Under the pieces are notes generated by a model, which searched no databases, was not told the origin of the DNA, and saw only the letters and a program-made list of their open reading frames with translations. A stretch of DNA of 64,000 nucleotides from a virus (lineage: Duplodnaviria; Heunggongvirae; Uroviricota; Caudoviricetes), in the IMG/VR virus record IMGVR_UViG_3300049638_000482; one strand, written 5' to 3'. The translations under genes and the position numbers were made by a program. Each line of letters begins with the position of its first letter. Position 1 is the first letter of the stretch. Positions 42,306 through 63,008 of the stretch are shown piece after piece.

Positions 42306-42623
42306 ATGGGTGAGTTGATTGATGCTATCAGCGAGGATCATCGCAGACGTTCAAGGGAGTCTAAAGAGCCTGTTACTGATGCGAAGATACTGTCTTTCAT
42401 GCAGCAAAAGTGTGATGAGATGTTCAATCGTAAGAAGACTTCTTCTGATGGTTCTGAGGTTCCTGTGGTAAGTTTCCGTCTGGAGATACCTGAGAGTTAT
42501 ATCAGTAGTGTGATTAGGGCTGCTCAGAACCCTGTGTTTAGTAGCACTTATTCCATTGTTCAGGAAGGTAATCGCCAGAGCAACGGTTCTTATATTATTT
42601 CAGTGCATCAGGTGGGTATTTAA
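42306..42623 (+). CDS. hypothetical small protein, first gene of the T4SS-associated block
   Basis: RBS ctaggag. 105 aa. Confidence 0.5.
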   Translation: MGELIDAISEDHRRRSRESKEPVTDAKILSFMQQKCDEMFNRKKTSSDGSEVPVVSFRLEIPESYISSVIRAAQNPVFSSTYSIVQEGNRQSNGSYIISVHQVGI

Positions 42624-42638
42624 TCTCGGGGGCGCTTA

Positions 42639-43163
42639 ATGGTTGCAGCGATTGATAGGCGTGTCACAAATGGCCTATATAAGGTGACAGTACAGAGCAT
42701 TCGTAGGTGCTACATCAGTTATATCTACACCCAGATAGACAAGGGGTATTCCGTCCGAATCCTTGGCTTGGTGGATACCACAGGAGAAGTGGGCGGTTTT
42801 GAATCCTTGGCTTGGCAGGCTTACAAGGTATCAGAGTGGATTGGTGATATTGGCTATATCACCGTGTATGATACCTTGTTAAGATTCAGGGATGCCCTTT
42901 TGGAAGACCTTCAGTCCAAGGGGTATTGCACCGCCAACGACCTATTCAGAATCTCTACGGAGAACGGCAAGTATAAGGTGCGTGCTAGTAAGCATATTCG
43001 TAGGGAGCTTGGAGAGGGTTGCCGCTTTAAGTTAGCCAGAGGGTATTTGGTCAGTCTTGAGAAGGCTCGTCGTGTTGTAACCGGTATATCTGATGAAGAC
43101 AGTTGGGACGTGTTCAACACATTGTGCGAGACGACACCTACAGAAGACGAAGTCTTGGTGTAA
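42639..43163 (+). CDS. hypothetical protein
   Basis: 174-aa ORF, co-oriented and tightly packed. Confidence 0.5.
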   Translation: MVAAIDRRVTNGLYKVTVQSIRRCYISYIYTQIDKGYSVRILGLVDTTGEVGGFESLAWQAYKVSEWIGDIGYITVYDTLLRFRDALLEDLQSKGYCTANDLFRISTENGKYKVRASKHIRRELGEGCRFKLARGYLVSLEKARRVVTGISDEDSWDVFNTLCETTPTEDEVLV

Positions 43164-43183
43164 GGATAAGAGGTGGTTCGCCT

Positions 43184-43906
43184 ATGATGGGTAAAACTCA
43201 TGCCAAGGGCGGTCAAGTAGCCGCGCTGGGTGGGTATTTGTGGCTTGAGAGCAGCGGAGTAATGGACCAAATTCCAGTGCCAGGCTGGGTTGGTTTGTTA
43301 ATCATTTACCCCTTTGCTATATGGGCAAGCACCGCTCCTGACCTTGACCATGGTAAACAAAGTATACCTAGCCACGATGTGGTAAGTCAGGGTATCTGGT
43401 ATGTGCTTCATGCAACGACAGGCATAAGAAAGAAAATGCGTCATAAGGGCTTCTTGTACGGTCTCCTCGGGGTATTCGATTGCAAGCATAGAAGTTGGCA
43501 GACGCACTCTTATGAGGCTTTGCTGTTTCTTATCTTCATGTCGGTGTATCTTGGGTCAGCCCAGATACCTCTTAATGAAGGAGCAACAACAGCGGTAATA
43601 CTAAGGCTGGTGTTCATGGGTCTTAGTCTGGGTTGGCTCGCTCACATCTTTTTGGATGGCATCACCCCTGAGGGTATTTGGATTGCCAGTGCAAGGTTCT
43701 TGAATGTTGCTGTTTTCCATAAGGAAGTATTGCCCGCCAAAGTTAAAATTGTGCCCAACATCAAATTCTTCGCAACGGGTGCTCCGCCTCAGGGTCAGTG
43801 GAATTGGGAGAAGATTTGGAGTATGCTTCTTTCAATCACCTCGTGGGTATTACTATTCATTATTATAGGTGGATGGATTCTTTCTCCTGTGCCGAACTAT
43901 TTTTAG
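43184..43906 (+). CDS. polytopic membrane protein, possibly YdjM/DUF457-like membrane-bound metal-dependent hydrolase
   Basis: ATG-ATG at 43184 with RBS aggtgg. Multiple TM helices. APDLDH and HIFLDG His/Asp motifs. Weak assignment. Confidence 0.4.
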   Translation: MMGKTHAKGGQVAALGGYLWLESSGVMDQIPVPGWVGLLIIYPFAIWASTAPDLDHGKQSIPSHDVVSQGIWYVLHATTGIRKKMRHKGFLYGLLGVFDCKHRSWQTHSYEALLFLIFMSVYLGSAQIPLNEGATTAVILRLVFMGLSLGWLAHIFLDGITPEGIWIASARFLNVAVFHKEVLPAKVKIVPNIKFFATGAPPQGQWNWEKIWSMLLSITSWVLLFIIIGGWILSPVPNYF

Positions 43907-43955
43907 TTTGTTCGACATTATAAATACGCTTCAAGCGGCATTGATTGGTTAAATT

Positions 43956-44846
43956 ATGGTTAAGGGTTTTAATACGGCTATCAAGCCTACTAAGTCCCGT
44001 TATATTGGCATGGCTCTGCTGGTTCTGCTGGTGGCTTTTGCCATGCTCTTTTCGGTCGGCGTAGCCAGTGGTTTCGCTGATACCGGTAATAAGTCTACTG
44101 ATGAAGCTAGAGCTCAGCAGGAGCTTCATTCTTATGTGCAGAGTCAGGTTTCGAAGAAGAAGTACGAGGTTGAGGGCGGCGGATACATGTACGGCGTTGA
44201 CGTCATGTCCGGCGGTAGTGACGCTGTTCCCGATGTTAGCGAAACTCAGTTTAGCAAGCTGAGCAAGAAAGGTCAGCAGTCTTTCACTGCTGATTTGATG
44301 AAGGCTATGGACCAGGCTGCTACTTCTGACCAGAAGCAACAGGCTGTTCAGAAGACTCCTGACGTTACTGAGCAGACCACTCAGAACTGGTTGAAGGAGC
44401 TTCAGACTCACCCGGGCATGGGTTCTCGAATCCTGCAGCAGACCCTTGGTCAGACCAAGCCTGATTTTGTGTCTGCCAATGCCATCTACAAGCCGTTCTC
44501 CGGAATGGTTGGTACACTGATTGCATTGATTGCAGTCATCATGATGGCTATGCTTGCTCTGACACTTGCTGTGGACCTTGCGTACATCACGGTTCCTCCG
44601 GCACGTGGTTTGGTCAAGGATGATAAGAGCCGTCTGGTGTCTCATGAGGCTATTTCCGCTGTCAAGGCAGCTGAGGACGGCGACGGTAAGGGTGTGGCTC
44701 TCGGGTATTACCTCAAGAAGCGTTTTATCAGCATCCTTGTTCTGGCGTTCTGCTTGGTGTTGCTGATTCAGGGCGAAATCTTCAACTTTGTTGGTACAAT
44801 GGTTGACCTGACCTTTGGTCTTGTCAATGTGTTCGTGCAAAGCTGA
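43956..44846 (+). CDS. secreted/membrane protein, paralogue 2 (T4SS-associated; signal peptide + 2 C-terminal TM helices)
   Basis: LTLAVDLAYITVPPARGLV and GYYLKKRFISILVLAFCLVLL blocks homologous to 30419 and 44938. Confidence 0.6.
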   Translation: MVKGFNTAIKPTKSRYIGMALLVLLVAFAMLFSVGVASGFADTGNKSTDEARAQQELHSYVQSQVSKKKYEVEGGGYMYGVDVMSGGSDAVPDVSETQFSKLSKKGQQSFTADLMKAMDQAATSDQKQQAVQKTPDVTEQTTQNWLKELQTHPGMGSRILQQTLGQTKPDFVSANAIYKPFSGMVGTLIALIAVIMMAMLALTLAVDLAYITVPPARGLVKDDKSRLVSHEAISAVKAAEDGDGKGVALGYYLKKRFISILVLAFCLVLLIQGEIFNFVGTMVDLTFGLVNVFVQS

Positions 44847-44937
44847 TAGCCTAGGGTTTTGACAGGGGCTGGCTGGGTATTCCAGCTCAGCCCCTGTTTT
44901 TATATTCAGACGTATTTTAGTTGGGAGCGTATTTAAG

Positions 44938-45756
44938 ATGAGTAAGACGAAATCAGGCACCCTCAGGGTATTGATGTCCTTGATGGTGTGCCTTGTAATG
45001 TTGTTTGGGGTATTTGGGTCACAAAGTATTGCGAAAGCAGAAGCTGATGACGGTTCTTTGAATTCTATGATTTCCCTTGTCAAGGGTGATAGGGTTCTGG
45101 CTAGTTATGCAGACCGAATTAATATTGCTATCCGCAATGATGGGGATATCAAAGCCAACTTTAATTTGCTGACTTATAACTACCAGAACGGTACTATGGA
45201 GTTCAATAATACGGAGTACGAGAAGCTGGACCTTAAAGCGAAACGCAAAGTAATGAAAATTGCTTTGGATACTGTTGGTAGTAGTAGCTTGTCGAGCGCA
45301 GTAAAGATGAAATTATACAACTTTATTGCGGATCAAGACACTGGCGTTTCTCAGGCTATTCGTACCCTGAGCAGTGATGCGAGTGCGGATGTGGCAAGTG
45401 CTCTGGGTTGGCTCACACCATACTACCCGTGGTTCGCAACAGCTTGGGGGTTGATATGCATCCTCATTCTTATCTTCATGGCTTTTGGTACCACCGTGGA
45501 TTTGTTGTATTTGGTGGTTCCCATGGCAAGAACTCTGCTTACTAATAATAAGACTGGTAAGCCTTGGTGCATTAGCCACGAAGCTTACAATGCGGCTAAG
45601 AAAGACGAGGATACTGGTGGCAAGGAAAATTATATGATTACATACTTGCGCACTAGGTTTATCACGTTCCTCGTCATGGGTACGATAATCGTGATGATTG
45701 TGACAGGCACCATTTGGGAGCCTTTCCTCTATTTCGGTAGCGCGTTCACGTCCTGA
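44938..45756 (+). CDS. secreted/membrane protein, paralogue 3 (T4SS-associated)
   Basis: FGTTVDLLYLVVPMARTLL and ITYLRTRFITFLVMGTIIVMIV blocks. Signal peptide. Confidence 0.6.
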   Translation: MSKTKSGTLRVLMSLMVCLVMLFGVFGSQSIAKAEADDGSLNSMISLVKGDRVLASYADRINIAIRNDGDIKANFNLLTYNYQNGTMEFNNTEYEKLDLKAKRKVMKIALDTVGSSSLSSAVKMKLYNFIADQDTGVSQAIRTLSSDASADVASALGWLTPYYPWFATAWGLICILILIFMAFGTTVDLLYLVVPMARTLLTNNKTGKPWCISHEAYNAAKKDEDTGGKENYMITYLRTRFITFLVMGTIIVMIVTGTIWEPFLYFGSAFTS

Positions 45757-45772
45757 GACAGGTGGGTATTTC

Positions 45773-48700
45773 ATGAAGAAGTTTTTTAGGCGTTTGTGGG
45801 TTTCGCTGATTGCCATTGCCTCTATGTTGGGGGTAACTGCTCCAGCGGCGTATGCTGACCCGGATGCTGGTGATAGTGCTAGTAAGGGTACGGAAACTAC
45901 TGTCAGCGCTAGTAATACTTATCAGCTGTTTATTCAGTTGGCTCAGAATAAGAAGCTTACTACAGCTGACGCTGAGATGTTTGGTGATATTTCTTCTGAA
46001 GAGGCTCAGAGGCAGTGGCAGTTCTTTGGAGTGCTGTTGTCTAATTACTACGCCCCGTTCTCTACTGACCTCAAGTCAGATGATTTGACTAATGAGAAAA
46101 CTGCTGGCGGTCAGGCTTATAAGAACATGATTAGTCTGCTTACCAGCAGTGACGGTGGTTTCCAGTTTGATAAGGACGTGGCTAAGTCCATTGCTCAGGG
46201 TGTGCTTGGTAGCGTCCAAAAGGACTCTGAGGACCTCCGATTCGGGTATTGCAAGAGCAGAGATCACCATGTCAGCAAGGATATGATTGATAAGGCCCAA
46301 ACTAAGCCTGTATTGAAGTTACAGGAGGGTCAGTGCTTTTTGGATGATACTGGCGAGGAGCCGGTAACTTGGTATTCCTTGCTTACGGCAGCAGTCGGTG
46401 ACTTTCCTATAAGTGCTGTAAAGCCGAGTGGTACTACAGATGGGACATTGGATGACTATGAGAAAGATGGTAATCGCGGTGATATAGATACTACTGCTTC
46501 TAAAGCAACTAAAACAAAATTGGGTGCTGCCGTTGGTAATGGTTTTGGTGTTGAATTTGATGGTATCACTGAGTCTAAGGATAAGTCTTTTGGCTCAGGT
46601 GGCGTTAGAAATGCTGATACTGTCGTAGTGTACGGTGCCAAGACTAAGTTTCCCGCTTTTATTGCGGATATGTATGGTGAGGAGATTACACCTAGTGTTC
46701 AGACATTGATGAATATCCTTAAGCATACTGCAACTGGCATGGGTTATGGTACTAATCTCATAGACACCCCGGGTATTTCAGATGACCCTAGCAAGTTGAA
46801 TGATGATAATTATATGAGTGACCTTCTAAATAAGGCCATTGATCCCACTAAGTATTACACCTTTGGTATTCCATTGAAGCTCTCTCCATTCGGTGATTTG
46901 TGGGCTGATGGTGCTGAGTCCAGTTTGATTGTTATGCCGGGTGCAGCCAATCCTATGATTTATGAGGCCATAGATAAAGATGGTAATGATGTGGAAGATT
47001 ATAGAGGTCTTGGTCAGGGGATGCTGAGTACCTTCTGGTTGCAAGCTCTTAATGAGGGCTGGATTGGTGGAAATGGCAATAAGAAGGAAGCTTGTAATGC
47101 TACCAATGGTAACAACTCAGCTGTGACTGTTGCTAATAAGAACTTGACTTGTAGCCAAGTGAGAAATATGATGTGGAGTGCGGCGCTTGAGAAAACTACG
47201 GACAAGGGTAATTACTCCCTTTTGACTCCTGATGAGGAGTCAGCTCATGGTGAGGAGAACCTAGATATTGATGTTACGGGTAATCCCGATAAGTTTGGTG
47301 CTAGGCTATCCATGGGTAGACGTAGGGCAGTGCTGTTTCGTGGTGCCCGTCAATCTGAGATTAAAGGAAAAACGGGGGCTGCGTCATTTTGGTCAGGTGG
47401 CGCTAAAGATAATCAGAAAGGTATCAATCAGGGTTTTCATGATTTCGTCAAAGCTCACCCGAAAACCTCTATGCGAATGGTAAGGTGGATAGGCGCTTAT
47501 AATGATAATGATTTTTGGAATAAACAAACTAGCCAAGTAACTTTTGGTTTCCCTTTCTTTAATTATGCAGCTTTGGGGGGTGATGGTACAACAGCAACTT
47601 ACTCAGGTCATCATCTGGAAGCTATAGTTAACACGTATGATAATAGTAATAATGGTTTAGTTAATACGCCAACAAATACTTCGCCTCTCAGTATGCAAGG
47701 GTATTTCGGCAGTGAGACTAGGGAAAGCAATATTGGTATTATCAATATTGATAATACCAGTGCTCGCCCCATTTATGATAATATATTCCTAATTGATGAT
47801 TTGGGTCTGCTGTCCTCTCTAAGCGGTGATTCAAGTTCTGACTCAAGTAGCGCTGCTTCCAGTGATAATCAGGATTCTTCCAGCGATTCCACTATCAGTG
47901 ATGGCAAAATCAACACCACGGGTATTGCCGTTTGCAGCGCGCGAGGTTTGGTCGATCCTAAGGATATTGGTAATGCGTGTAAGCCCGCTGATGGTAGCAT
48001 CAAGTCCAAGGATCAGTCAACTGATGGTTTTTCTGATGCAGTCAAGAACGCAACCACGAAGCTGGACGGGTCAAATGACAATCAGCCTAAGGACGGTCAA
48101 ACCCTGTCTATTGATATTGCCAACCCGAAGATGAAGGCCATGCTTATCATGACCTACATGGCTGCTTCTCAGAATAAGGATTCGGGTAACCAGGATATCA
48201 AGACCACATGGGCTAACCTTGGATATCGTTTTGCCCTTGAGCAGCTTCCAGCTCCTAAGCACTTCACTCTTGATGCCTCGGTGGATAACTCCGAAGATAA
48301 GATGGCTCTGGAGATTAAGAATTGGATTTGGTATCTGCTTAATCCTACAGTCGGTTTCCGCTACAAGATGACCTTGCTCAGCGGAGCCATCTCCTCGGTA
48401 TTCATCGGCTGGCATAATGATATGGTCGGCGCTTCCGGAGTCGGCAACCTTCCGGGCACTACCAAGTACACAGGTTTCAATGGCTATGTGACCACGCCTA
48501 CATTGTCTGATATGGAGTGGTCTGATAAGATAGTTTCGTGGTACAAAGACCACCTGTTGTTAATCATAGTTATCGTGGCTCTGATTCTGGTGTGCTTCGT
48601 TGTCACTAATACGATAGGCATGCAGAAGGCTATTGTGTCGTTGGTGGCGTTTACAGTGTTGGCGCTTATTCCGGCAGCGGCAGTTAACGCCGTAGCCACA

Positions 48701-51421: not shown

Positions 51422-51487
51422 TTGAATAGAGCGGATTGCATACTCCATTGGATATGCAATCCGCTTTTGATTGGAGGTGTGCGTTCT

Positions 51488-53666: not shown

Positions 53667-53766
53667 GGTATTCATGCGACGGCGACGGTGTTGCGTTTCG
53701 GGTAATTATTCCGTGGCTGTGTTAGTTGCTGTGCGTTTGTCTTAGCATTTAAAAAGGAGTTTTTCC

Positions 53767-55293: not shown

Positions 55294-55418
55294 AGATAAG
55301 GAGAAGAGGGGCTGAGGTTAAGCGGGTTAGGCGTAAGGCGAAGAAGCTGAGCGGTCTGGGCGCAAGGCGAAGAAGCTGAGCGGTCTAGGCGTAAGGAGCA
55401 GACAGGCGGGTATTACTC

Positions 55419-56693
55419 ATGATTGTTATTCTTGATTCCGGGAGGAGTTCCTTGGATTATGATAATGATGCTGTGGTGGTGTCCAGCGTAGAGGATTTGA
55501 AGCACTTGGATGGTGTTTTTGATGCCCTCATCATAGGCTCTTATGCTCTTGGCAAGATGGATGTAACCGCTCTTAATGAGTTCAAGAAGTGCTTGTCTGG
55601 GTTCCCTAAGGTTGTGTATGTCCGCAAGGAAGAAGATACTGATAAGGGTCTGGAGACCTTGGTTCGTAGTGTCAATGGCACAATAGAGGACAACACAGAT
55701 TATCTGGACTCCCCTCAGGGTATTAAGAGGCTTGCCAGCGGGGAGAATTACAATGCGGTCGCTGTAACAGACAATATCAACGTGCTTAAGGAGTTTTCTG
55801 AGACTTTCAAAGGCGGAAAGATAAACAGGGGTCAGCAGCTCATCCTAAGCAATGCTCTGCAAGAGGTTATCAGGGGTGAGGAAGAGAATAAGCGCGCTTT
55901 GAGCCGTACCACAGGAGCTTACTTGGGGGTATTAACCACCGCTCAGGAGTCAGTGGAGGACATTCGTAAGAGGAATGATGACATCAAGAAGAAAATAGCG
56001 GAGATTGACAAGATCGTTCGAAATGCTCGTAACAAAGAGAGTGTTAAGACCAGCGGTAATGTTATTACCATATATCCTAACTTTGAGCTGGAGCACATTC
56101 CGTCAAGGATGACTATCATCATCAAGGATTTGGGTAGGACTCCGTATCTGACATCTTTCGCGGTTGGTTTTGCGCAGTATCTCAGTGCAACGTACGCCAG
56201 GGATACTAAGGTGGTTTTCTTGGAGCCCACAGGGTATTTATACGAGTTAAGGTACCCCTCCGATACATCGCTTAAGCAGCTTTTTGTCACTCAGAGCAAT
56301 ATGCAAAGTACCGCAGATAGAGCTGTAATAACTCCTATTGTTCATACCAACTACCCCATGAGGGAGAACATCCGTAACATCATCAGTCGTCCTAACTACA
56401 CTGGTCTCATCTTGGTTGACAGGTTGCTAACCGATGTTAAACCCTTGATAAGCGTTGATGGTGTCAGACCGGTATATGCGGCTAGTAGTCAGGGCTGGTT
56501 CGCTTTGCGTAATAGGGATTTGCCATGGTTTACGTCTTGTAAGTCCCGTGAGGATGAGGGTGCCATGGGGTACATCCCTACATTCCGTGGTTATGATAAT
56601 CTTTCGGTTATTAACCGTGAGGCTGCTTATGCGACGCCCATGGTTACTAAGTTGTACGAAGACGTGATAACCCTTAGCGGAAACGACCGCTAA
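55419..56693 (+). CDS. hypothetical T4SS-associated protein
   Basis: 424 aa, no recognisable motifs. Confidence 0.55.
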   Translation: MIVILDSGRSSLDYDNDAVVVSSVEDLKHLDGVFDALIIGSYALGKMDVTALNEFKKCLSGFPKVVYVRKEEDTDKGLETLVRSVNGTIEDNTDYLDSPQGIKRLASGENYNAVAVTDNINVLKEFSETFKGGKINRGQQLILSNALQEVIRGEEENKRALSRTTGAYLGVLTTAQESVEDIRKRNDDIKKKIAEIDKIVRNARNKESVKTSGNVITIYPNFELEHIPSRMTIIIKDLGRTPYLTSFAVGFAQYLSATYARDTKVVFLEPTGYLYELRYPSDTSLKQLFVTQSNMQSTADRAVITPIVHTNYPMRENIRNIISRPNYTGLILVDRLLTDVKPLISVDGVRPVYAASSQGWFALRNRDLPWFTSCKSREDEGAMGYIPTFRGYDNLSVINREAAYATPMVTKLYEDVITLSGNDR

Positions 56694-56724
56694 GGAATAG
56701 GAAGTCTAGAAAGGTGGGTATTAA

Positions 56725-58839
56725 ATGCTCGAAAGACTGGAAGGCGGAGTTCCCGGAGTCAAGATTTGGTGGTGGGACCTGTGGCGTAAGGTTCTTATTG
56801 ATTACTATCATAGGTATAACTCTAGTGCCAGTATCGTTCGTGATAGTAATGCCTATGCCGATGTGCAGGCTCTGTATAGCGGCAGGGACAGAATCAGCGT
56901 ATTCTACACCCTCGACGAGTTCCCCGAGACAATGACGGTTCGCTATGCCGAAACCATCCGTAATTCCCTTGCTGAGGCTGTGTATGTGCGTATCTCATTC
57001 GCTACCTTGATGGAGAGGTATTCCACCCCTTGGAATAGTGCTAAAATCAAGTCCAAGATTCGTACTTGGAGCACCATTGCCGAGGAGGACGAGAGTACCG
57101 GCTCCGCCTACACCGCTGTCAAGGAGTCAGATCAGCAAGCGCGTATTTCTCGTCGAGAAGCTTCTCTGTATTACATGGCTAACGCAGAGCAGCGCAGAGG
57201 TAGGAGAAGCTTTAGGTTCCGTGTACTTATGATTGTCTCTGGCGTGCGTGGACCTGAGTTTGATAAGGGTCTCACTAAAGTGGAGAAGGTCTGCTCGGAC
57301 TTGGGTATTCGCGCGACCCGCGTCACAGAGAATCTTGACCGCTATATCGCATATTTTTCGCCTTTCCGTTTGGCTAGTGATTCGTCGCTCGCCAAGGGAA
57401 TCGGTAGCACCGTTTTGACGGACGAGATTCTTGCCAGGTTCAATAACTATACTCAGGGTCAGGTAGGAAGAGGACCGATCTACTGGGGCACGGATATCTA
57501 CTCGGGGTACCCAGTATGGAACGAGATTAAGAAGAAGGACACCGACGCCGAGAACCTTCTGGTTGTTGCAGAGACGGGCGGTGGTAAATCATTCTTCGTT
57601 AAGACCATCCTCTTGGGTATTCTCGCTGACAAGCGTTTCGACGCCACCATCATGGATATTGAAGGCTTCGAGTACACTCCTTTGGTGGATATCGTTGGTA
57701 AGAGCGATAAGTGCGTGCAGCTCAATATGGCAGAAGGCAAGGGTGCATACTTCGACCCTGTTGCAGTGTATCAGACCGGTGACCCAATCCTTGATGAGGA
57801 TATGTACACCACCAGCCGCTCCTATACCATCGCCGTTCTCAAGACTCTGATGGGTGATTATTCCAAGAATAACCAGTGGGTGGACACCATCATCAACGAT
57901 GCCGTGTCTAAGACATACCTCAAGGCGGGTGTGACGGAAGACCCGTCTACATGGGCGAATAGTCATAACCTGACTCTGAAAGATGTCTACAAGACCATTC
58001 TTGAACTGTACAAGTCTAATAGCATTGAAGGCGTAAATAAGCTGTATGCTAATAATGCTGGCTATCTTGATGCCAAGGATAGGGTGGTTGCCCAGCTGAG
58101 CCGCTACTTCGATGAGAATGGTACACGAGCGAACGTGTTCAGCCATCCAGTGGGTATTGACACCATCAAGGACGCCCGCGTGGTCATCTGTTCCTTTGGC
58201 CTTGCAGGAAAGACCGAGAAGACCATCGACCCTATTCAGATGGCGTTGACCCAGTTGTTTGCAGCTAATATTGCTGGTCTGCGAAGCCGGTTCGGTCAGC
58301 TCAGAGGTCAGTATAGCCTCAAGTTGTGGGAAGAGTTCCAGCGCTGGTCTAGCTTGCCTGATTCTGAGAAGACCATCGTGACAGCGTTGACCGGTGGTCG
58401 TAAGCTGGGTGATGTTAATATCATCATCACCAACAAGGTCAGCGACCTGTTGAATGGCGATCGCTTCGGTATTTTCGAGACGGCAACCTCCTTCGCCATC
58501 GGCTCAATCCAGGATAGCAAGGTTCGTCACGAGCTGGCTAAGAGACTCAATGTGGAGCGACTTATTCCTGATTTGGATTCCCTTGTAATTGACTCCAGCA
58601 ACAAAGTCAATAACGAGAGATATCGCTACGCTTTCGTGGTTCACCCCGCCAAGGGTATTGAGACGGTTACGAAGATGGATTTGCCGCCGTCCATTACTGA
58701 AAGCCCCCTCTTTAGGACGGGTATTAAGAGGAAGGATGAGACAGCTGATACAGTTAGCAGTCTCGATAAAGCCCTTAGTGAAATCCAGAAGATGGGTATT
58801 GATCTCGGCGGTACTGGTCTGCTTGACATGGACGAATAA
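56725..58839 (+). CDS. VirB4/TrsE/ConE/TcpF-like T4SS ATPase
   Basis: Walker A LLVVAETGGGKSFF. DEAW-like Walker B region YSLKLWEEFQRW. Size ~700 aa and T4SS context. Confidence 0.65.
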   Translation: MLERLEGGVPGVKIWWWDLWRKVLIDYYHRYNSSASIVRDSNAYADVQALYSGRDRISVFYTLDEFPETMTVRYAETIRNSLAEAVYVRISFATLMERYSTPWNSAKIKSKIRTWSTIAEEDESTGSAYTAVKESDQQARISRREASLYYMANAEQRRGRRSFRFRVLMIVSGVRGPEFDKGLTKVEKVCSDLGIRATRVTENLDRYIAYFSPFRLASDSSLAKGIGSTVLTDEILARFNNYTQGQVGRGPIYWGTDIYSGYPVWNEIKKKDTDAENLLVVAETGGGKSFFVKTILLGILADKRFDATIMDIEGFEYTPLVDIVGKSDKCVQLNMAEGKGAYFDPVAVYQTGDPILDEDMYTTSRSYTIAVLKTLMGDYSKNNQWVDTIINDAVSKTYLKAGVTEDPSTWANSHNLTLKDVYKTILELYKSNSIEGVNKLYANNAGYLDAKDRVVAQLSRYFDENGTRANVFSHPVGIDTIKDARVVICSFGLAGKTEKTIDPIQMALTQLFAANIAGLRSRFGQLRGQYSLKLWEEFQRWSSLPDSEKTIVTALTGGRKLGDVNIIITNKVSDLLNGDRFGIFETATSFAIGSIQDSKVRHELAKRLNVERLIPDLDSLVIDSSNKVNNERYRYAFVVHPAKGIETVTKMDLPPSITESPLFRTGIKRKDETADTVSSLDKALSEIQKMGIDLGGTGLLDMDE

Positions 58840-58860
58840 GTTTTCGATTAGGGGCGTATC

Positions 58861-59943
58861 ATGGCTACATCAAAAAACAAGAAGAATGATTCTTCGAAGC
58901 CTATGGGCAATACTAAGGAGGAGCTTGGTTATGACCCGGATAAGGGTGTTGGCAAGGTAATTTTCTTCTTCCAGAAGAATCCGTTGTATTTCGTCGTGGC
59001 AATCCTTGTGGTTGTGGCGATAATTGGTGCCATGATGTGGAATGGTGCTTCCAAGCGTAACGCTGAGAAAGCCGAGGAGGATAGAATCACCAGTGAGATT
59101 GATAAGCGGAGGGCAGCTGCTAATCAGGGTACGGATATTGGTAAAGGTACTGACCAGCAGTTGTTGGCATCTCAGGATTCTCTGAAAGAGTCCTATGGTA
59201 ATCCGCCAAATGGATATATCTGGGATTGGGGCGGAGACCTTTTGTCATTGGGTGATACCTCAATGACTTCAGAAGAGGTGTTGTACGCCTACCTCAAGGG
59301 TATTTCCAGTTTGGATTTGGCTACCGTGCGCAAGTACAGTCGTGATTCGTCGGTATACTCCACGTATTCGTCCTATTTTGATAAGGTTAACAATTCGGTC
59401 GAGACTGGTGACAGCGATTTTGGATTCGAGAAGAACCTGTATCGTCAAGCCATGCTTTCATTGCAGGTAGATAGCATTGCCAGTACCACCCTGTTCACTA
59501 ATAACAAGGTGTCGTACACGGTCAATGTGAAGATGCTCGATTACTCGGATAAGACATTTACAGATAGTGCCGAGAATCGTGCCAGTATCTTTGAGACGCT
59601 TGATAAGTACTCTAATTCCGAGGATGATAAGACCAAGGCTAAGCAGTATCTTCAGGATTGGCTCCTCAAGTATTATACGAGTGGCAAAGCCAAGCTGTAT
59701 GACAAGCAAGTGGATATCACCCTTCAGAAGTACCCTGACTTGAATACTGGTTGGCTGGTTAACATTGATAAAGACCTTGATAATAATTTCAAGTATAGCG
59801 ACGGTAATGGGGTCTATAACTATGTGATGGACAATTATCGTGATTGGTACACAGACAAGATTGCCGAGGATTACCAGAAGAAGGCTGATGCAGCTCAGCA
59901 GCAAGCCAATGAAGCTCAGCAGCAATCCAATAACGGGAAGTAG
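58861..59943 (+). CDS. T4SS-associated secreted/membrane-anchored protein
   Basis: N-terminal TM YFVVAILVVVAIIGAMMW plus ~300-aa extracytoplasmic domain. Confidence 0.5.
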   Translation: MATSKNKKNDSSKPMGNTKEELGYDPDKGVGKVIFFFQKNPLYFVVAILVVVAIIGAMMWNGASKRNAEKAEEDRITSEIDKRRAAANQGTDIGKGTDQQLLASQDSLKESYGNPPNGYIWDWGGDLLSLGDTSMTSEEVLYAYLKGISSLDLATVRKYSRDSSVYSTYSSYFDKVNNSVETGDSDFGFEKNLYRQAMLSLQVDSIASTTLFTNNKVSYTVNVKMLDYSDKTFTDSAENRASIFETLDKYSNSEDDKTKAKQYLQDWLLKYYTSGKAKLYDKQVDITLQKYPDLNTGWLVNIDKDLDNNFKYSDGNGVYNYVMDNYRDWYTDKIAEDYQKKADAAQQQANEAQQQSNNGK

Positions 59944-60031
59944 AAGGCCGAAGGGCGAGGGGCGAGACGGCGCTCTGGAGGTTTCAAAGTTAGCTTGTAG
60001 GAAGCCCCCGGGTATTACAGAGGAGGCCGCT

Positions 60032-60478
60032 ATGGCGGGTATTTTGATTGTCATATTCACCATAATCATGGTGTGGTGTTTTGATAACCCTGTGCTCGAT
60101 AGCACAGTGGGTGATATTCTCAGTGATAACATGCTCTCTGATAAGACCACTCCCGGCGACCCGAAGCACCTTAAAGACCTACAGCAGGGTCAGAGTGGGC
60201 AAGGGCAGGGGCAAGGAGGTCAGGGTGGTTTCGGTCAGCCTCAGCCTTCGATGGGTATGTCGATGGGTTCTCCCATGCAGCCCAGCCCGTTTTCCCAGCC
60301 GGGTATTGGTTTTTCTTCTCAGCCTAGCATTGGCGGAGGTTTTCCTATGCAGCAACAGCAGCAAATGCCAGCTCAGCAGCCCGGTGGTACATGGGCTAGT
60401 TTGAAGGTGGGCGACTTCCTTGGTGGGATTTGTGCTGTTGTCCTGATAATCTGTTTGGGTACGTGCATCTTCTCGTAG
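60032..60478 (+). CDS. small membrane protein with Gly/Gln/Met/Pro-rich loop between two TM helices
   Basis: ATG at 60032 with RBS gaggagg. QGQSGQGQGQGGQGGFGQPQPSMGMSMGSPMQPSPFSQPGIGF loop. Confidence 0.5.
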   Translation: MAGILIVIFTIIMVWCFDNPVLDSTVGDILSDNMLSDKTTPGDPKHLKDLQQGQSGQGQGQGGQGGFGQPQPSMGMSMGSPMQPSPFSQPGIGFSSQPSIGGGFPMQQQQQMPAQQPGGTWASLKVGDFLGGICAVVLIICLGTCIFS

Positions 60479-60500
60479 GGCGTAAGGGCGGGTATTTAAA

Positions 60501-63008
60501 ATGTCAGCTTTGGATGATTTTAAAGCACAGAGAGCGTTTAAGAAGAACCCTCCAACGGTTATGCCGGGTATGGAGAGTCCAGCAGGCGGAAGCAATATGG
60601 CGTTTCCAGGAGCTAATTCCCCGTTTGGTCAGTCGGCTCCGGGTGCTCCGCCCAGCCCGTTTGGGCCTCAAGGACCAATGAATACGCCTAGCCCCATGGG
60701 AAGTCCGTTTGGCAGCCCGATGGGAAGTCCATTCGGAAGTCCGATGGGCAGTCCAATGGGAAGTCCGATGGGCAGTCCTTTCAGCAATCCTATGGGTAGC
60801 CCTTTTGGTAACACTGCGCCTAACCCCATCGCGCAGCCGGGTATTCCTCAGCAGGGTGCTGACGTGTCGGAGCAATACAAGAAGGACGCTGTCCCAGCAT
60901 TGCTCGCCGTGTTCCGTGGAGTGACGGGTGCTTTTAGGAATACCTCTAAGTACTCGAATGCTAAGACGGGCTTCCATATCATGGTGGCTGGCGCAGTCGA
61001 AATCGTCATAGGTGTGGTGTTGTTCGTGGCTAATCTGTTCCACGGCGGGTATTTCAATGGCCATGCCGCAGTGACGCTGGGCGGTGTCATTACCAGTATG
61101 GCGGGGCTGGGTATTTGGTATGCGTTCAATAGCAGTGGTGCAGCCGAGCGAGCCAAATACGTGGAAGAGCAGCAGAAGCAGTCGCAAGCCCAAGCCCCGC
61201 AAATGCCAGCTCAGCCCGCCTTCACTCCCCCTGAGACACCTGATTTTTTCGCTAACGCCTCATCAAGCGAGGATGAGGACGATGATGATTGGAACTTCTC
61301 GCTATCAGACGATGAGGACGAAGATGGAGAATCTGCGCCCGTTGAGACCAAAGACCCTGACGAGGTGTTGGAGACTATGCCTACGCTCGATAAGGGTATG
61401 TTTACTCGTCAGTATCTGTGGGAGGCTTACAAGCAGGTTCTTCCTCAGGTCAATCCCAACTTTGGTGACATGAACGAGATTGACGAGGACTCCAGCGAGT
61501 TTGAGGAGTGGGGCACACGAATCACCGAGGCAGCCACAGTAGCAGGTCTCAACATTGAGGACGTGTCCCTCGAGTCCATGTATGAGAACCTTTCCATCTA
61601 TCAGCTTAAGGTGACCCGCCAGTCCGGTGCCTCCTCCAAAGAGAAGGTCATGGTTAGCGAAGTGCTCAACTCCTACAAGATGGATGACATGGGTCGCAGC
61701 ATCCCTGAGCGTTCGGGCGCATTTAGCACCTACAGGGCAGGCCGTGGGTATTTATTCATCACCATTTTCAAGGCCAGCAAATATATGGTGTCTGTTGGTG
61801 ACATCTATAATAAGTGCAGCGACTGGGTGCTTGATACCGATGTCAAGGTGCCATGGGCTTACGGCGTGTCTCAAGACGGGGAAATCTGGAAGGGAGACCT
61901 TCTGGACCTTGATAGCATGATTGTGGCTGGTATGCCTCGCTTCGGTAAGTCTTGGAACATGTTCAGCATCATGCTTCAGATGTGCATGTGGATGTCCCCG
62001 AAGGATTTGAACTTCGAGTGCTACGATGTCAAGGAGGGTATTTCCGAGTATTCGACCTTCACATTGCCGCACCTTAAGCGCTTCGAGTCCGACCCTAAGC
62101 GCGTGGTTGAGCGAATTAAGTATATTGTCAACGTGGAGGGCGCTCGCAGGAAGAAGATTCTCGCTCAATATGGAGTAAAGAAGATTCAAGACCTCCCCGA
62201 GGAAGCTCATCTACCTTACTTGTATATTGTCATCGATGAGATGGTTGGTTTGAATAATGCCATTATCTCGTGGGGCGGCAAAGATGAGCTTAATGTCTAT
62301 AGGGATTGCTTGAACAACCTTATCTCGCAGCTCCCTGCCACGGGTATTCGACCGCTGATGGTTCCTCACCGCATCGTTGATAACATCATTCCTAAGACGG
62401 CTTCCAGCTTGGTGGCTTGCCGCATGACGTTGGGTGCCGATACTGATGATGCTTTGAAGGGCGCTATTGATGAGACTTCAGCCGCCTTCGGGTATTCCCT
62501 GCCGAATAAGGGTGATGCGGCGGCTAAGATTGTCACGATGAATAGCGGCAAGCCGTTCTATTGCCATAGTGCTGTGGTGACCACCAGCGACGAGGATAAT
62601 AAGAAGTTGACGAAGTTCGTTCAGTCGGTGTGGAATCGCATTGAGCCTGACGAGAAGGGCTGGTGGGACACCCACAAGCCAGTGAACGCCGCCGCAAAAG
62701 AGAATGAAGTCGCTTCGGAGGGCGCGGAAGGCGATTCCGAAGGAGATGGAACTTTCGAGGTTTCAGGGGTCTCGGTGAAGAAGGATTCCGAGCCGAAGAA
62801 GGAATACAAGCCTGTTTCCAATTGGGTGCCTTCTAATGAGGAGACGTTCCGCCCGAAGCCAGGAGAGGGTATTACCACCGAGAAAGGTGGTTCCACCGCT
62901 ACTCGAGAGAACACCCGATGGGCTGACAACGATAGCGAGGGTAGTACTCAGAGTGCTAAGGACTCTAAAGAAGATGAGGACCCTTACGACTTCTGGGATA
63001 GCCTTTAG
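60501..63008 (+). CDS. FtsK/SpoIIIE-family coupling ATPase (TcpA/Orf21-like) with low-complexity MGSP-repeat N-terminus and 2 TM helices
   Basis: Walker A VAGMPRFGKSW, Walker B YLYIVIDEM. N-terminal (MGSPFGSP)n. TM helices FHIMVAGAVEIVIGVVLFVANLF and VTLGGVITSMAGLGIWYAF. Acidic linker. Confidence 0.65.
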   Translation: MSALDDFKAQRAFKKNPPTVMPGMESPAGGSNMAFPGANSPFGQSAPGAPPSPFGPQGPMNTPSPMGSPFGSPMGSPFGSPMGSPMGSPMGSPFSNPMGSPFGNTAPNPIAQPGIPQQGADVSEQYKKDAVPALLAVFRGVTGAFRNTSKYSNAKTGFHIMVAGAVEIVIGVVLFVANLFHGGYFNGHAAVTLGGVITSMAGLGIWYAFNSSGAAERAKYVEEQQKQSQAQAPQMPAQPAFTPPETPDFFANASSSEDEDDDDWNFSLSDDEDEDGESAPVETKDPDEVLETMPTLDKGMFTRQYLWEAYKQVLPQVNPNFGDMNEIDEDSSEFEEWGTRITEAATVAGLNIEDVSLESMYENLSIYQLKVTRQSGASSKEKVMVSEVLNSYKMDDMGRSIPERSGAFSTYRAGRGYLFITIFKASKYMVSVGDIYNKCSDWVLDTDVKVPWAYGVSQDGEIWKGDLLDLDSMIVAGMPRFGKSWNMFSIMLQMCMWMSPKDLNFECYDVKEGISEYSTFTLPHLKRFESDPKRVVERIKYIVNVEGARRKKILAQYGVKKIQDLPEEAHLPYLYIVIDEMVGLNNAIISWGGKDELNVYRDCLNNLISQLPATGIRPLMVPHRIVDNIIPKTASSLVACRMTLGADTDDALKGAIDETSAAFGYSLPNKGDAAAKIVTMNSGKPFYCHSAVVTTSDEDNKKLTKFVQSVWNRIEPDEKGWWDTHKPVNAAAKENEVASEGAEGDSEGDGTFEVSGVSVKKDSEPKKEYKPVSNWVPSNEETFRPKPGEGITTEKGGSTATRENTRWADNDSEGSTQSAKDSKEDEDPYDFWDSL
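60696..60810 (+). repeat. 12-15-bp coding tandem repeats (MGSP(F)GSP)n
   Basis: atgggaagtccgttcggcagcccg-like units at the 5' end of the FtsK-like gene. Confidence 0.6.

What the first reader, a model, noticed from the sequence alone, without database searches (positions are those of the whole stretch)
42306..63008. Gram-positive (Tn916/pCW3/ICEBs1-class) conjugative T4SS module
This is a contiguous, co-oriented block. It holds a VirB4-like ATPase (56725-58839, Walker A ETGGGKS), a VirB6-like polytopic protein (45773-51421), a membrane-anchored NlpC/P60 hydrolase (51488-52534), an FtsK/SpoIIIE-like coupling protein (60501-63008) and several bitopic membrane proteins. This is the signature gene set of FATA-type mating-pore systems. 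No relaxase or oriT nick site is recognisable in the window. The two giant LAxTG adhesins upstream could act as mating-aggregation factors, by analogy with PrgB-type aggregation substance.
Basis: partly seen in the sequence, partly recalled or inferred. Interest (0 to 1): 0.55.

Follow-up and report, generated by a model that had tools for sequence, protein, structure and literature searches.

The report
pXO16-type conjugation locus, giant gut element
This 21-kb gene block is a DNA-transfer (conjugation) machine of the rare type known only from the 350-kb Bacillus thuringiensis plasmid pXO16. Here it sits on a giant, mostly uncharacterised element from a human-gut-type metagenome, so a system thought unique to one insect pathogen belongs to a wider family.

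Summary
A co-oriented block of 14 genes (42306-63008, + strand) encodes a VirB4-fold ATPase, a membrane-anchored FtsK-type ATPase, a membrane-anchored NlpC/P60 hydrolase, a 1882-aa polytopic protein and several small membrane proteins.

This is a Gram-positive type IV secretion-like module, but it is not a member of the Tn916/ICEBs1/pCW3 class:
- Their signature profiles (AAA_10 VirB4, TcpC) do not match.
- Family HMMs do not hit pCW3 TcpF or TcpH. Only the FtsK-like protein matches, to TcpA.

Instead, 10 of the 14 genes, plus two syntenic upstream genes, have collinear homologues in the tip (transfer of israelensis plasmid) region of pXO16. Examples are the VirB4-like ATPase (39.5% identity, E 3e-138) and profile matches for the FtsK-like protein (2e-146) and the giant protein (7e-243). 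The pXO16 system is experimentally conjugative and also has no known relaxase or oriT.

The ATPase family is small and isolated: 355 clusters among 1.84 billion representatives. It occurs mainly on 100-370 kb metagenomic contigs. A 208-kb Hadza gut contig has the same gene order. Some of these contigs are filed as viral in IMG/VR, and the plasmid homologues are typed non-mobilizable.

Verdict: new member of a known but barely studied kind. Function is inferred by homology. The host is unresolved.

The parts
29099..30403 (+). AAA+ ATPase (DNA pol III delta'-like). It is syntenic with the AAA ATPase just upstream of the pXO16 tip region. It lies outside the finding and is probably not part of the pore.
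   Evidence: Pfam DNA_pol3_delta2 at 2e-22. It is 31% identical to pXO16 L001:934-2229, E 1e-65.
30419..31261 (+). Third member of the family with a signal peptide, an ectodomain and C-terminal TM helices (related to 43956 and 44938).
   Evidence: tblastn hits pXO16 2270-3034 and also the 4801-5679 gene. TM helices at residues 1-30, 105-145 and 232-267.
32839..41958 (+). Wall-anchored surface protein of 3039 aa (LAMTG + TM + KKKK). It sits between the two syntenic blocks, unlike in pXO16. Candidate mating adhesin, by inference only.
   Evidence: Sorting signal. No pXO16 counterpart at this position. Followed by the terminator at 41996-42027.
41996..42027 (+). Intrinsic terminator (14-bp stem, 8 G-C pairs, T-run). 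It marks the upstream boundary of the module.
42306..42623 (+). Small soluble protein of 105 aa, function unknown.
   Evidence: Conserved with the same size and position in the 208-kb Hadza gut relative L024. No family hit.
42639..43163 (+). Small soluble protein of 174 aa, function unknown.
   Evidence: Conserved in L024. No family hit.
43184..43906 (+). YdjM-family membrane-bound metal-dependent hydrolase (TcpI-like accessory protein). The likely start is the ATG at 43184, not the TTG at 43103.
   Evidence: Pfam YdjM 34 bits, cut-off 29. 33% identical to pXO16 4081-4788. pCW3 TcpI is YdjM at 95.5 bits. L024 calls a 240-aa YdjM gene.
43956..44846 (+). Paralogue A: signal peptide, ectodomain of about 130 aa and a C-terminal TM hairpin. 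Putative extracytoplasmic pore or pilus-like component (inferred).
   Evidence: 34% identical to pXO16 4801-5679, E 1e-46. Paralogous to 44938-45756, E 1e-18. TM scan.
44938..45756 (+). Paralogue B of the same family.
   Evidence: 28% identical to pXO16 5799-6608, E 1e-28.
45773..51421 (+). Polytopic membrane protein of 1882 aa: signal peptide, variable ectodomain of about 890 aa, TM pair, second ectodomain of about 600 aa, C-terminal bundle of 4-5 TM helices and a Gly/Ser-rich basic tail. Candidate channel or scaffold (functional analogue of VirB6/TcpH/ConG, untested).
   Evidence: TM scan. 30% identical to pXO16 7017-12521 over residues 707-1765. Family HMM against pXO16 gives 7e-243. Present in all but one (L008) of the 16 related loci compared. 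No hit to pCW3 TcpH and no Pfam hit.
51488..52534 (+). Membrane-anchored NlpC/P60 peptidoglycan hydrolase with two N-terminal TM helices and a long helical region. Positional counterpart of the pXO16 hydrolase gene.
52545..53666 (+). Protein with two TM helices and a cytoplasmic domain of about 280 aa. It belongs to the family-wide core. Function unknown; it may dock the ATPase (inferred).
   Evidence: Present in all 16 related loci. HMM against pXO16 16216-17553 gives 1e-83. TM scan.
53767..55293 (+). Soluble protein with an acidic repeat linker, function unknown.
   Evidence: Weak collinear match to pXO16 17737-18657, E 8e-6. Conserved in close relatives.
55321..55396 (.). Intergenic tandem direct repeat, 29-bp unit in 2.6 copies. 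Unique in the window. Role unknown.
   Evidence: It is absent from L003 and L004, where the flanking genes almost abut (7- and 20-bp gaps).
55419..56693 (+). Soluble 424-aa protein immediately upstream of the ATPase, function unknown.
   Evidence: HMM against pXO16 18675-19913 gives 8e-50 over the full length. Present in 9 of the 16 related loci by BLAST.
56725..58839 (+). VirB4-fold ATPase, the signature T4SS motor.
   Evidence: 39.5% identical to pXO16 over 93% of its length, E 3e-138. Foldseek top 15 hits are all VirB4. Profile against PDB: best hit is 4AG5 at 6e-4. NCBIfam VirB4_plasma 1.2e-9. Walker A at residue 282.
58861..59943 (+). Bitopic protein with one TM helix and an ectodomain of about 290 aa. 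Candidate wall-spanning scaffold (a VirB8/TcpC-like role is inferred, not tested).
   Evidence: 33% identical to pXO16 22843-23871. HMM 4e-75. No PDB or Pfam hit.
60032..60478 (+). Small protein with two TM helices and a Gln/Gly/Pro-rich linker.
   Evidence: Gene call in L002. Equivalents of 126-163 aa in L003, L004 and L024. TM scan.
60501..63008 (+). Membrane-anchored FtsK/SpoIIIE-type ATPase with a single ATPase domain. It has a Pro/Gly/Met-rich N-terminus and an acidic linker. Candidate coupling protein and DNA pump.
   Evidence: Pfam FtsK_SpoIIIE 32.5 bits. Profile against PDB: EccC5 1e-23, FtsK 1e-22, pCW3 TcpA 3e-10. HMM against pXO16 24253-26583 gives 2e-146. HMM against pCW3 TcpA gives 37 bits.
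63031..63064 (+). Stable hairpin after the FtsK-like gene, with no T-run. It marks the downstream boundary.
   Evidence: -32.8 kcal/mol, z -7.3.

Best explanation
The block is the conjugative mating-pore module of a giant extrachromosomal element, probably about 200 kb. It is homologous and collinear with the tip (transfer of israelensis plasmid) region of the 350-kb Bacillus thuringiensis plasmid pXO16.

Proposed working, with each step marked as shown or inferred:
1. Wall-anchored giant surface proteins encoded nearby help donor-recipient contact. Inferred by analogy with pXO16 aggregation and pCW3 CnaC.
2. The membrane-anchored NlpC/P60 enzyme opens the peptidoglycan locally. The fold is shown. 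The role is inferred from pXO16 TipB, which is required for efficient transfer.
3. The 1882-aa polytopic protein, the three small paralogues (signal peptide plus TM hairpin), the bitopic 360-aa protein and the 2-TM proteins build the envelope-spanning channel. The topology is shown; the role is inferred.
4. The VirB4-fold ATPase powers assembly or translocation. The fold and the homology are shown.
5. The membrane-anchored single-domain FtsK-type ATPase acts as coupling protein and pumps the DNA. The family assignment is shown; the role is inferred from pCW3 TcpA.

As in pXO16, no relaxase or oriT is recognisable, so how the DNA is processed is open. The system is a very divergent branch of the Gram-positive T4SS and is invisible to the standard VirB4 (AAA_10), TcpC and MOB profiles.
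For: **Collinear homology to pXO16**
- BLAST: VirB4-like 39.5% identity, E 3e-138; giant protein 30% over about 1100 aa; YdjM 33%; the two paralogues 34% and 28%; the 2-TM protein 28%; the bitopic protein 33%; the upstream AAA ATPase 31%.
- Profiles built without pXO16, all hitting at the syntenic position: FtsK 2e-146, giant 7e-243, 52545 family 1e-83, 58861 family 4e-75, 55419 family 8e-50, 53767 family 8e-6, hydrolase 6e-4.

**Component identities**
- VirB4 fold, with sequence-level support.
- NlpC/P60 fold with a conserved Cys/His.
- FtsK family and TcpA relation.
- YdjM shared with pCW3 TcpI.

**Conservation and context**
- The gene order is conserved in relatives at 72-80% VirB4 identity and in a 208-kb Hadza gut contig, and in its core across 16 loci.
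- No phage structural hits were found in the 20 window ORFs tested. INPHARED phages hold no homologue.

**Literature**
- The pXO16 tip locus is required for conjugation, transfers ssDNA, is distantly T4SS-like, and lacks a known relaxase and oriT. TipB hydrolase is needed for efficient transfer (PMC9673590 section 16 and its reference list; PMC6199540 section 30).
Against: - Function rests entirely on homology at 28-40% identity to one experimentally studied plasmid in a different host clade. Nothing here shows transfer.
- I could not read the primary tip papers (Makart 2018, Hinnekens 2021). The exact tip boundaries, and which pXO16 ORF is TipB, are inferred from position and domain.
- Two pXO16 genes (L001 14925-15527 and 15537-16160) have no counterpart here. 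Four window genes have only positional counterparts or none: 42306, 42639, 60032 and the ORF starting at 63094.
- The hydrolase and 53767 links to pXO16 are weak.
- Several relatives are filed as viral contigs in IMG/VR, and I could not inspect the rest of those contigs.
- The host and the replicon status (plasmid or integrated) of this window are not established.
Confidence: 0.85

Rival explanations
1. It is an ordinary member of the Tn916/ICEBs1/pCW3 (FA/FATA) class of Gram-positive T4SS, and is merely divergent.
For: - It has the same functional inventory: a VirB4-fold ATPase, an FtsK/TcpA-type coupling ATPase, an NlpC/P60 hydrolase, a YdjM/TcpI-like protein, and polytopic and bitopic membrane proteins.
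- The best NCBIfam hits are Mycoplasma-ICE and C. difficile CD1110 VirB4-like families.
- The pXO16 literature itself calls the system distantly related to T4SS 'like pCW3' (PMC6199540 section 30).
Against: - AAA_10 scores TcpF at 263 bits and gives no hit here. TcpC (PF12642) gives no hit.
- Family HMMs find only TcpA/TcpB in pCW3, not TcpF, TcpH, TcpC or TcpG.
- The gene order differs: the T4CP is last here and first in tcp.
- The NCBIfam scores (36 and 26 bits) are far below the cut-offs (590 and 325).
- The VirB4-like profile recovers only 355 clusters in 1.84 billion representatives, so it does not reach the large canonical VirB4 families.
Confidence: 0.08
2. The host element is a giant virus-like entity. 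The two FtsK/HerA-superfamily ATPases and the membrane proteins serve genome packaging or delivery of a membrane-containing virion rather than conjugation.
For: - Ten relatives sit on IMG/VR 'viral' contigs of 26-268 kb.
- The strict co-orientation of genes and the many paralogues prompted a 'phage-like nature' comment for pXO16 (PMC6199540 section 30).
- FtsK/HerA-type ATPases package DNA in membrane-containing viruses (general knowledge).
Against: - No PHROG structural hit in the 20 window ORFs tested.
- No homologue of the ATPase in 50,697 deposited phage genomes.
- pXO16 is experimentally conjugative and no plaques have been reported (PMC6199540).
- The ATPase model matches VirB4 (E 4e-12) better than HerA (about 1e-6).
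- Wall hydrolase plus polytopic membrane proteins plus a membrane-anchored FtsK ATPase is the mating-pore pattern.
Confidence: 0.03
3. It is a protein-secretion system (T7SS-like, or an effector-translocating T4SS) rather than a DNA-transfer machine.
For: The best PDB profile hits for the FtsK-like protein are the T7SS ATPases EccC5 and EssC/YukB (1e-23 to 3e-18). A huge polytopic protein with large ectodomains recalls EsaA/YueB (from memory, not tested).
Against: - The FtsK-like protein has one ATPase domain, not three.
- No FHA or WXG100-type hit appears in the Pfam scans.
- A VirB4-fold ATPase is present.
- The homologous pXO16 locus mediates DNA transfer (PMC9673590).
Confidence: 0.04

Closest known systems
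tip (transfer of israelensis plasmid) locus of pXO16 / pBTHD789-1 (NC_018516), Bacillus thuringiensis sv. israelensis
   Same: The gene order is collinear: AAA ATPase, small membrane paralogue, YdjM, two paralogues, giant polytopic protein, NlpC/P60-like hydrolase, 2-TM protein, two soluble proteins, VirB4-like ATPase, bitopic protein, FtsK-like ATPase. An SNF2/DEAD helicase downstream is conserved family-wide but lies beyond the window. Ten of the 14 genes are homologous. Both sit on a large replicon whose genes are co-oriented, and neither has a recognisable relaxase.
   Different: - Identity is only 28-40%. The hydrolase is 348 aa here against 710 aa in pXO16.
- Two pXO16 genes of about 200 aa are missing here.
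- A 10.5-kb insertion carrying a 3039-aa LAMTG surface protein separates the upstream syntenic genes from the module.
- GC content is about 50%, and the setting is gut or anaerobe metagenomes rather than the Bacillus cereus group.
- Close relatives are about 208-211 kb rather than 350 kb.
tcp locus of Clostridium perfringens pCW3 (TcpA-TcpI, TcpM)
   Same: An FtsK-type coupling ATPase (TcpA; 37-bit profile hit; PDB 6o1w at 3e-10). A YdjM-family protein (TcpI). A VirB4-fold ATPase. A wall hydrolase. A nearby isopeptide adhesin.
   Different: No sequence relation to TcpF (AAA_10), TcpC, TcpH or TcpG. The hydrolase is NlpC/P60 rather than the glucosaminidase-domain annotation TcpG carries in the record. 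The gene order differs. pCW3 has the TcpM relaxase; none was found here. pCW3 is 47 kb.
Tn916 / ICEBs1 conjugation modules (Orf16/ConE, Orf14/CwlT, Orf15/ConG, Orf21/ConQ)
   Different: The signature profiles were not met (AAA_10, TcpC). The ICEBs1 and Tn916 proteins themselves were not compared here. The resemblance of the giant protein to ConG is by topology only.
Inocles, giant (245-368 kb) plasmid-like elements of oral Streptococcus (PMC12340149)
   Same: Giant, newly recognised extrachromosomal elements from human-associated metagenomes that carry VirB4 and a coupling protein.
   Different: Inocles have 24-32% GC, two replichores and annotated VirB4/VirD4. This window has about 50% GC, a single gene orientation and an FtsK-type rather than a VirD4-type ATPase. 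No sequence comparison was made.

Membership tests
pXO16 Tip-type T4SS | Homologue of the pXO16 VirB4-like ATPase | tested here: met
   39.5% identity over 93% of the protein, E 3e-138.
pXO16 Tip-type T4SS | Membrane-anchored single-domain FtsK/SpoIIIE ATPase at the distal end of the locus, homologous to the pXO16 one | tested here: met
   The family HMM built without pXO16 hits L001:24253-26583 at 2e-146 over the full length. Pairwise BLAST aligns only the Pro/Gly-rich N-terminus.
pXO16 Tip-type T4SS | Cell-wall hydrolase (TipB-like) encoded next to the giant polytopic protein | tested here: met
pXO16 Tip-type T4SS | Collinear gene order of the membrane components (YdjM, paralogues, giant polytopic, 2-TM, bitopic) | tested here: met
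pXO16 Tip-type T4SS | Carried on a very large replicon with co-oriented genes | tested here: inconclusive
   All large ORFs over the 64 kb are on the + strand, with rising cumulative GC skew. The closest relatives are 208-211 kb contigs. Circularity and the size of this element were not determined.
pXO16 Tip-type T4SS | Mediates conjugative DNA transfer | not testable with these tools
   Needs mating assays.
Tn916/ICEBs1/pCW3-class Gram-positive T4SS | VirB4 of the AAA_10 (PF12846) type (TcpF/ConE/Orf16) | tested here: not met
   No AAA_10 hit at E<=0.01, whereas pCW3 TcpF scores 263 bits. The family HMM does not hit TcpF.
Tn916/ICEBs1/pCW3-class Gram-positive T4SS | TcpC/VirB8-like bitopic protein (PF12642) | tested here: not met
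   No hit for any module protein. pCW3 TcpC scores 71.7 bits. The fold of 58861-59943 was not tested.
Tn916/ICEBs1/pCW3-class Gram-positive T4SS | TcpH/ConG-type VirB6-like polytopic protein | tested here: inconclusive
   No sequence hit between the giant-protein HMM and TcpH. TcpH itself has no Pfam model. The fold was not tested (protein too long, structure jobs exhausted).
Tn916/ICEBs1/pCW3-class Gram-positive T4SS | Coupling ATPase of the FtsK/TcpA or VirD4 type | tested here: met
   TcpA at 37 bits. PDB 6o1w at 3e-10.
Tn916/ICEBs1/pCW3-class Gram-positive T4SS | Relaxase and oriT linked to the module | tested here: not met
   No relaxase-type Pfam domain in the large ORFs of the 64-kb window. 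The rest of the element was not seen.
VirB4 ATPase superfamily | N-terminal domain plus C-terminal RecA-like ATPase domain with a Walker A motif; fold closest to VirB4 | tested here: met
   The Foldseek top 15 hits are all VirB4: TrwK 4e-12 over about 580 aligned columns, 4ag5 at TM 0.64. Model pLDDT is only 70. Walker A is AETGGGKS. G285, G287, K288 and S289 are invariant in 31 sequences.
NlpC/P60 (C40) peptidoglycan peptidases | Papain-like fold with a catalytic Cys and His | tested here: met
Type VII secretion (EssC/EccC-based) | Multi-domain FtsK-like ATPase with FHA, and WXG100 substrates | tested here: not met
   A single ATPase domain with one Walker A motif. No FHA or WXG100 Pfam hit in the module.

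The most novel reading that the evidence does not exclude
The pXO16 Tip system is the only studied member of a distinct, deep-branching mating-pore lineage specialised for moving giant (about 100-370 kb) replicons with co-oriented genes among Bacillota of gut, oral and soil habitats. This lineage works without a canonical relaxase or oriT, perhaps because its FtsK-type pump loads DNA in an unconventional way. Standard tools (MOB-suite, AAA_10/CONJ-type profiles) miss it, and its carriers are partly misfiled as viruses. The present window would be one of its first recognised members outside the Bacillus cereus group.
Probability: 0.35. Interest if true: 0.7.

Novelty: new member of a known kind. 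Interest (0 to 1): 0.45.

Why it matters
pXO16 conjugation is unusually fast and efficient. It mobilises plasmids with no oriT or relaxase, and even chromosomal markers. It has been treated as a curiosity confined to B. thuringiensis sv. israelensis (PMC9673590).

This window shows a collinear homologue on a giant element from human-gut-type metagenomes. It belongs to a family of at least several hundred protein clusters on 100-370 kb contigs, with named hosts in Clostridium, Clostridioides, Mogibacterium, Oscillospiraceae and Lachnospiraceae.

If these loci are active, there is an overlooked route of large-scale gene flow in anaerobic communities. Current annotation calls it 'non-mobilizable' or 'viral'. 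The conserved core defined here gives a comparative handle on which Tip components matter: the giant polytopic protein, the 2-TM protein, the VirB4-like ATPase, the bitopic protein, the FtsK-like ATPase and the downstream SNF2 helicase. It also narrows where the missing DNA-processing function might lie.

Tried and rejected
- **Pfam, PHROGs and NCBIfam on all module proteins.** Only YdjM, DUF87 and FtsK_SpoIIIE pass. There were no TcpC, AAA_10, TrbL/VirB6, CHAP or relaxase hits.
- **Single-sequence PDB searches.** Nothing for the ATPase or the hydrolase. The hydrolase profile against PDB also found nothing.
- **Megablast of 11.5 kb against PLSDB.** No match.
- **tblastn of the ATPase against INPHARED phages.** No match.
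- **Paralogy between 53767 and 55419.** My idea was a TadZ-like receiver plus ParA-like architecture. BLAST shows no similarity and no family hits, so I dropped it.
- **Host inference from the Ser/Thr kinase at 3330-5066.** Close hits are all element-borne. The first named hit is a Bifidobacteriaceae MAG at 28%, so the result is inconclusive.
- **Homology of the window's giant surface proteins to the pXO16 giant fimbrial protein.** None.
- **Link to Inocles.** Rejected on GC content and architecture; only the paper was checked.
- **Primary tip paper.** Not held in the library.
- **tRNA scan of the window.** No genes.

Full report
**1. What is in the sequence**

Almost every large ORF in the 64-kb window lies on the + strand. 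GC content is about 0.50 and cumulative GC skew rises steadily.

The finding's region is bounded upstream by a strong intrinsic terminator at 41996-42027, just after a 3039-aa LAMTG-anchored surface protein. It is bounded downstream by a very stable hairpin at 63031-63064 (-32.8 kcal/mol, z -7.3).

Between these lie 14 tightly packed co-oriented genes. A hydropathy scan gives the following topologies:
- a YdjM-like multi-TM protein;
- two paralogues, each with a signal peptide, an ectodomain and a C-terminal TM hairpin (E 1e-18 to each other), with a third copy at 30419-31261;
- an 1882-aa protein with a signal peptide, two large ectodomains, a TM pair and a C-terminal TM bundle;
- a 348-aa protein with two N-terminal TM helices;
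- a 2-TM protein with a cytoplasmic domain;
- two soluble proteins;
- a soluble 704-aa P-loop protein (AETGGGKS);
- a bitopic 360-aa protein;
- a small 2-TM protein;
- an 835-aa protein with a Pro/Gly/Met-rich N-terminus, a membrane anchor, an acidic linker and a P-loop (GMPRFGKS).

**2. Standard profiles mostly fail**

Pfam recognises only three proteins above its cut-offs:

| Protein | Pfam family | Bits |
|---|---|---|
| 43184-43906 | YdjM | 34 |
| 56725-58839 (ATPase) | DUF87/HerA | 29.6 |
| 60501-63008 | FtsK_SpoIIIE | 32.5 |

The putative hydrolase gives only a sub-threshold NLPC_P60 hit (E 0.054). PHROGs finds nothing meaningful in 20 ORFs. NCBIfam gives only far-sub-threshold VirB4-like hits: VirB4_plasma at 1.2e-9 and conju_CD1110 at 2e-6.

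The FtsK and, weakly, the VirB4 signals are present. The TcpC, AAA_10 and CHAP/NlpC_P60 profiles do not reach significance. TcpH/ConG could not be tested this way, because TcpH itself matches no Pfam model.

**3. Fold-level confirmation**

*VirB4-like ATPase.* An AlphaFold model of the ATPase was built on 31 homologues (pLDDT 70).
- Its 15 best PDB matches are exclusively VirB4 proteins. R388 TrwK scores E 4e-12 over about 580 aligned columns. Thermoanaerobacter VirB4 scores E 1.7e-10 with TM 0.64.
- HerA/TdpAB, Cag-beta and TrwB follow at 1e-7 to 1e-5.
- At sequence level, the family profile's best PDB hit is also the Thermoanaerobacter VirB4 (E 6e-4).

*Hydrolase.* The hydrolase model has pLDDT 73.
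- Asp198-Cys199-Ser200, His285 and His292 are invariant in its family.

*FtsK-like protein.* The family profile hits EccC5 and FtsK at about 1e-23 and the pCW3 coupling protein TcpA (6o1w) at 3e-10.

**4. The true relatives: pXO16**

tblastn of the ATPase against 72,556 plasmids finds only 22 records. The best ten are the 350-kb plasmid of B. thuringiensis sv. israelensis (pXO16 = pBTHD789-1) at 39.5% identity over 93% of the protein, E 3e-138. All 22 records are typed 'non-mobilizable' by MOB-suite.

The pXO16 region is collinear with the window. BLAST links the AAA ATPase, the small membrane paralogue, YdjM, the two paralogues, the giant polytopic protein, the 2-TM protein, the ATPase and the bitopic protein.

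HMMs built from metagenomic relatives, with pXO16 left out, each hit the syntenic pXO16 ORF:

| Window family | E-value against the syntenic pXO16 ORF |
|---|---|
| Giant polytopic (45773) | 7e-243 |
| FtsK-like (60501) | 2e-146 |
| 2-TM protein (52545) | 1e-83 |
| Bitopic protein (58861) | 4e-75 |
| Soluble protein (55419) | 8e-50 |
| Soluble protein (53767) | 8e-6 |
| Hydrolase (51422) | 6e-4 |

A pairwise alignment of the hydrolase with pXO16 12538-14670 lines up the catalytic motifs (E 6e-4).

According to the reviews, the pXO16 tip locus has these properties (PMC9673590 section 16; PMC6199540 section 30):
- It is about 25 kb with 16 CDS.
- It was delimited experimentally as the conjugation locus.
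- It contains two ATPases and the wall hydrolase TipB.
- It has no identified relaxase or oriT.

**5.

I fetched pCW3 and searched its Tcp proteins with the window-family HMMs.
- Only the FtsK-like family finds a partner: TcpA at 37 bits and TcpB at 15 bits.
- The VirB4-like family does not find TcpF. The giant protein does not find TcpH. Nothing finds TcpC or TcpG.
- As controls, TcpF scores 263 bits on AAA_10, TcpC scores 72 bits on PF12642 and TcpI scores 95 bits on YdjM.

So the window shares with pCW3 a TcpA-type ATPase and a YdjM/TcpI-type accessory protein, plus general function. It fails the class's signature profiles, and the gene order also differs.

**6. The family and its carriers**

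- *Size of the family.* The ATPase has several hundred homologues, almost all unnamed metagenomic proteins, many on contigs of 100-370 kb. An exhaustive profile search of 1.84 billion representatives finds only 355 clusters at E<=1e-3 and 133 at E<=1e-30. The family is small and isolated, and its profile does not reach the canonical VirB4 families.
- *Named carriers.* These are Clostridium baratii, Clostridioides difficile CD160, and Mogibacterium (236-kb contig), Oscillospiraceae, Lachnospiraceae and Clostridia MAGs, plus Bacillus and Paenibacillus plasmids.
- *Viral labels.* Ten relatives are in IMG/VR as 'viral' contigs of 26-268 kb. No deposited phage genome has a homologue.
- *Closest relatives.* They keep the same 14-gene order. 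One is a 208-kb contig from a Hadza gut metagenome, and sister contigs are 208-211 kb. The window itself matches a Logan contig from SRR35532861.
- *Conserved core.* Across 16 loci the core is the giant polytopic protein, the 2-TM protein, the VirB4-like ATPase and the FtsK-like ATPase. The 424-aa soluble protein and the bitopic protein are usually present. An SNF2/DEAD helicase sits 3-4 kb downstream and is conserved as far as pXO16. It lies just beyond the window end.

**7. Mechanism**

*Shown:*
- the VirB4 fold;
- FtsK-family membership and the relation to TcpA;
- the NlpC/P60 fold with its catalytic residues;
- the topologies;
- collinear homology to an experimentally conjugative locus.

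*Inferred:*
- The hydrolase opens the wall, as TipB does.
- The giant polytopic protein, the paralogues and the bitopic protein form the envelope-spanning conduit.
- VirB4 energises assembly or transfer.
- The FtsK-type ATPase recruits and pumps DNA.
- The nearby LAxTG/isopeptide surface proteins promote mating contact. This is by analogy with the pXO16 agr region, which aids transfer but is not essential, and with pCW3 CnaC/SrtD. There is no sequence homology.

*Open:*
- how the DNA is nicked and processed, since no relaxase is visible in the window or known in pXO16;
- the roles of the five conserved proteins with no known fold.

**8. Rivals**

- Canonical FATA membership fails the profile tests (section 5).
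- A viral packaging or delivery machine is suggested only by the IMG/VR labels and the phage-like gene orientation. Against it are the lack of structural hits, the VirB4-over-HerA fold ranking and the pXO16 experiments.
- A T7SS-like protein-secretion system is suggested by the EccC hits. Against it are the single ATPase domain, the absence of FHA and WXG100, and the VirB4 protein.

**9. Limits**

- Function is by homology only.
- The host, the replicon status and the size of this element are unresolved. The kinase-based host search was uninformative.
The tip boundaries and the identity of TipB with pXO16 12538-14670 are my inference.
- The model confidences are moderate.

**10. Verdict**

The finding is a real and correctly delimited feature. 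It is a new member of a known but barely explored kind, the pXO16 Tip-type T4SS. Its value is that it extends that 'unique' system to giant elements of gut and anaerobe communities and defines a conserved core. Interest is moderate, at 0.45.

Noticed in passing
window 55321-55396: An intergenic tandem direct repeat, 29-bp unit in 2.6 copies (AGCGGTCTAGGCGTAAGGCGAAGAAGCTG), lies between 53767-55293 and 55419-56693. It is unique in the window. Close relatives L003 and L004 leave only 7- and 20-bp gaps there, so they cannot hold it. It could be a regulatory or protein-binding site.
   Followed up: partly
window 63094-64000: A new ORF after the FtsK-like gene runs off the window. It is extremely acidic and has perfect 36-bp repeats in 4.5 copies (63469-63629; LPEDEDEEDGSV) plus further 42- and 39-bp repeats. 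It is the positional equivalent of the roughly 400-aa proteins that follow the FtsK-like gene in L003 and pXO16, but shows no detectable similarity to them.
   Followed up: partly
window 43-3186, 6494-13648, 32839-41958: Three very large surface proteins. One has seven FctA isopeptide domains and LAQTG, and is probably cut by the window's left edge. One is 2384 aa with Big_13 and only a C-terminal TM anchor. One is 3039 aa with LAMTG. No sortase gene was found in the window. LAxTG signals are typical of class E sortase substrates (from memory), which may hint at the host.
   Followed up: partly
window 3330-5066: An element-borne Ser/Thr protein kinase (Pkinase 3.6e-34). Its relatives at 52% identity form a very large swarm of near-identical metagenomic variants on contigs up to 252 kb, which suggests an abundant related element.
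   Followed up: partly
window 14629-15747, 16690-18084, 29099-30403: The element carries its own 5'-3' exonuclease-like protein, an SPFH/flotillin-like protein and a DNA pol III delta'-like AAA+ ATPase. Relatives also carry an SNF2 helicase and a GyrB-like topoisomerase downstream of the module (L003 17751-22163). This is a replication and repair gene load more like jumbo phages or megaplasmids than ordinary plasmids.
   Followed up: no
window 19658-28002: A run of seven co-oriented ORFs of 230-560 aa has no credible Pfam match. Of the six scanned against PHROGs, only one gave a weak hit, to a family of unknown function. Only 18314-19231 (just upstream of the run) and 24705-25688 have weak counterparts in the pXO16 region upstream of tip.
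   Followed up: no
L012-L021 (IMG/VR contigs of 26-268 kb): Relatives of this conjugation module sit on contigs catalogued as viral. The plasmid homologues, including experimentally conjugative pXO16, are all typed 'non-mobilizable' by MOB-suite. Both labels look like systematic misannotation of this element family.
   Followed up: partly
window 56660-56707: An imperfect inverted repeat (21-nt arms, 76% complementary, 6-nt gap) spans the end of 55419-56693, just upstream of the VirB4-like start codon.
   Followed up: no
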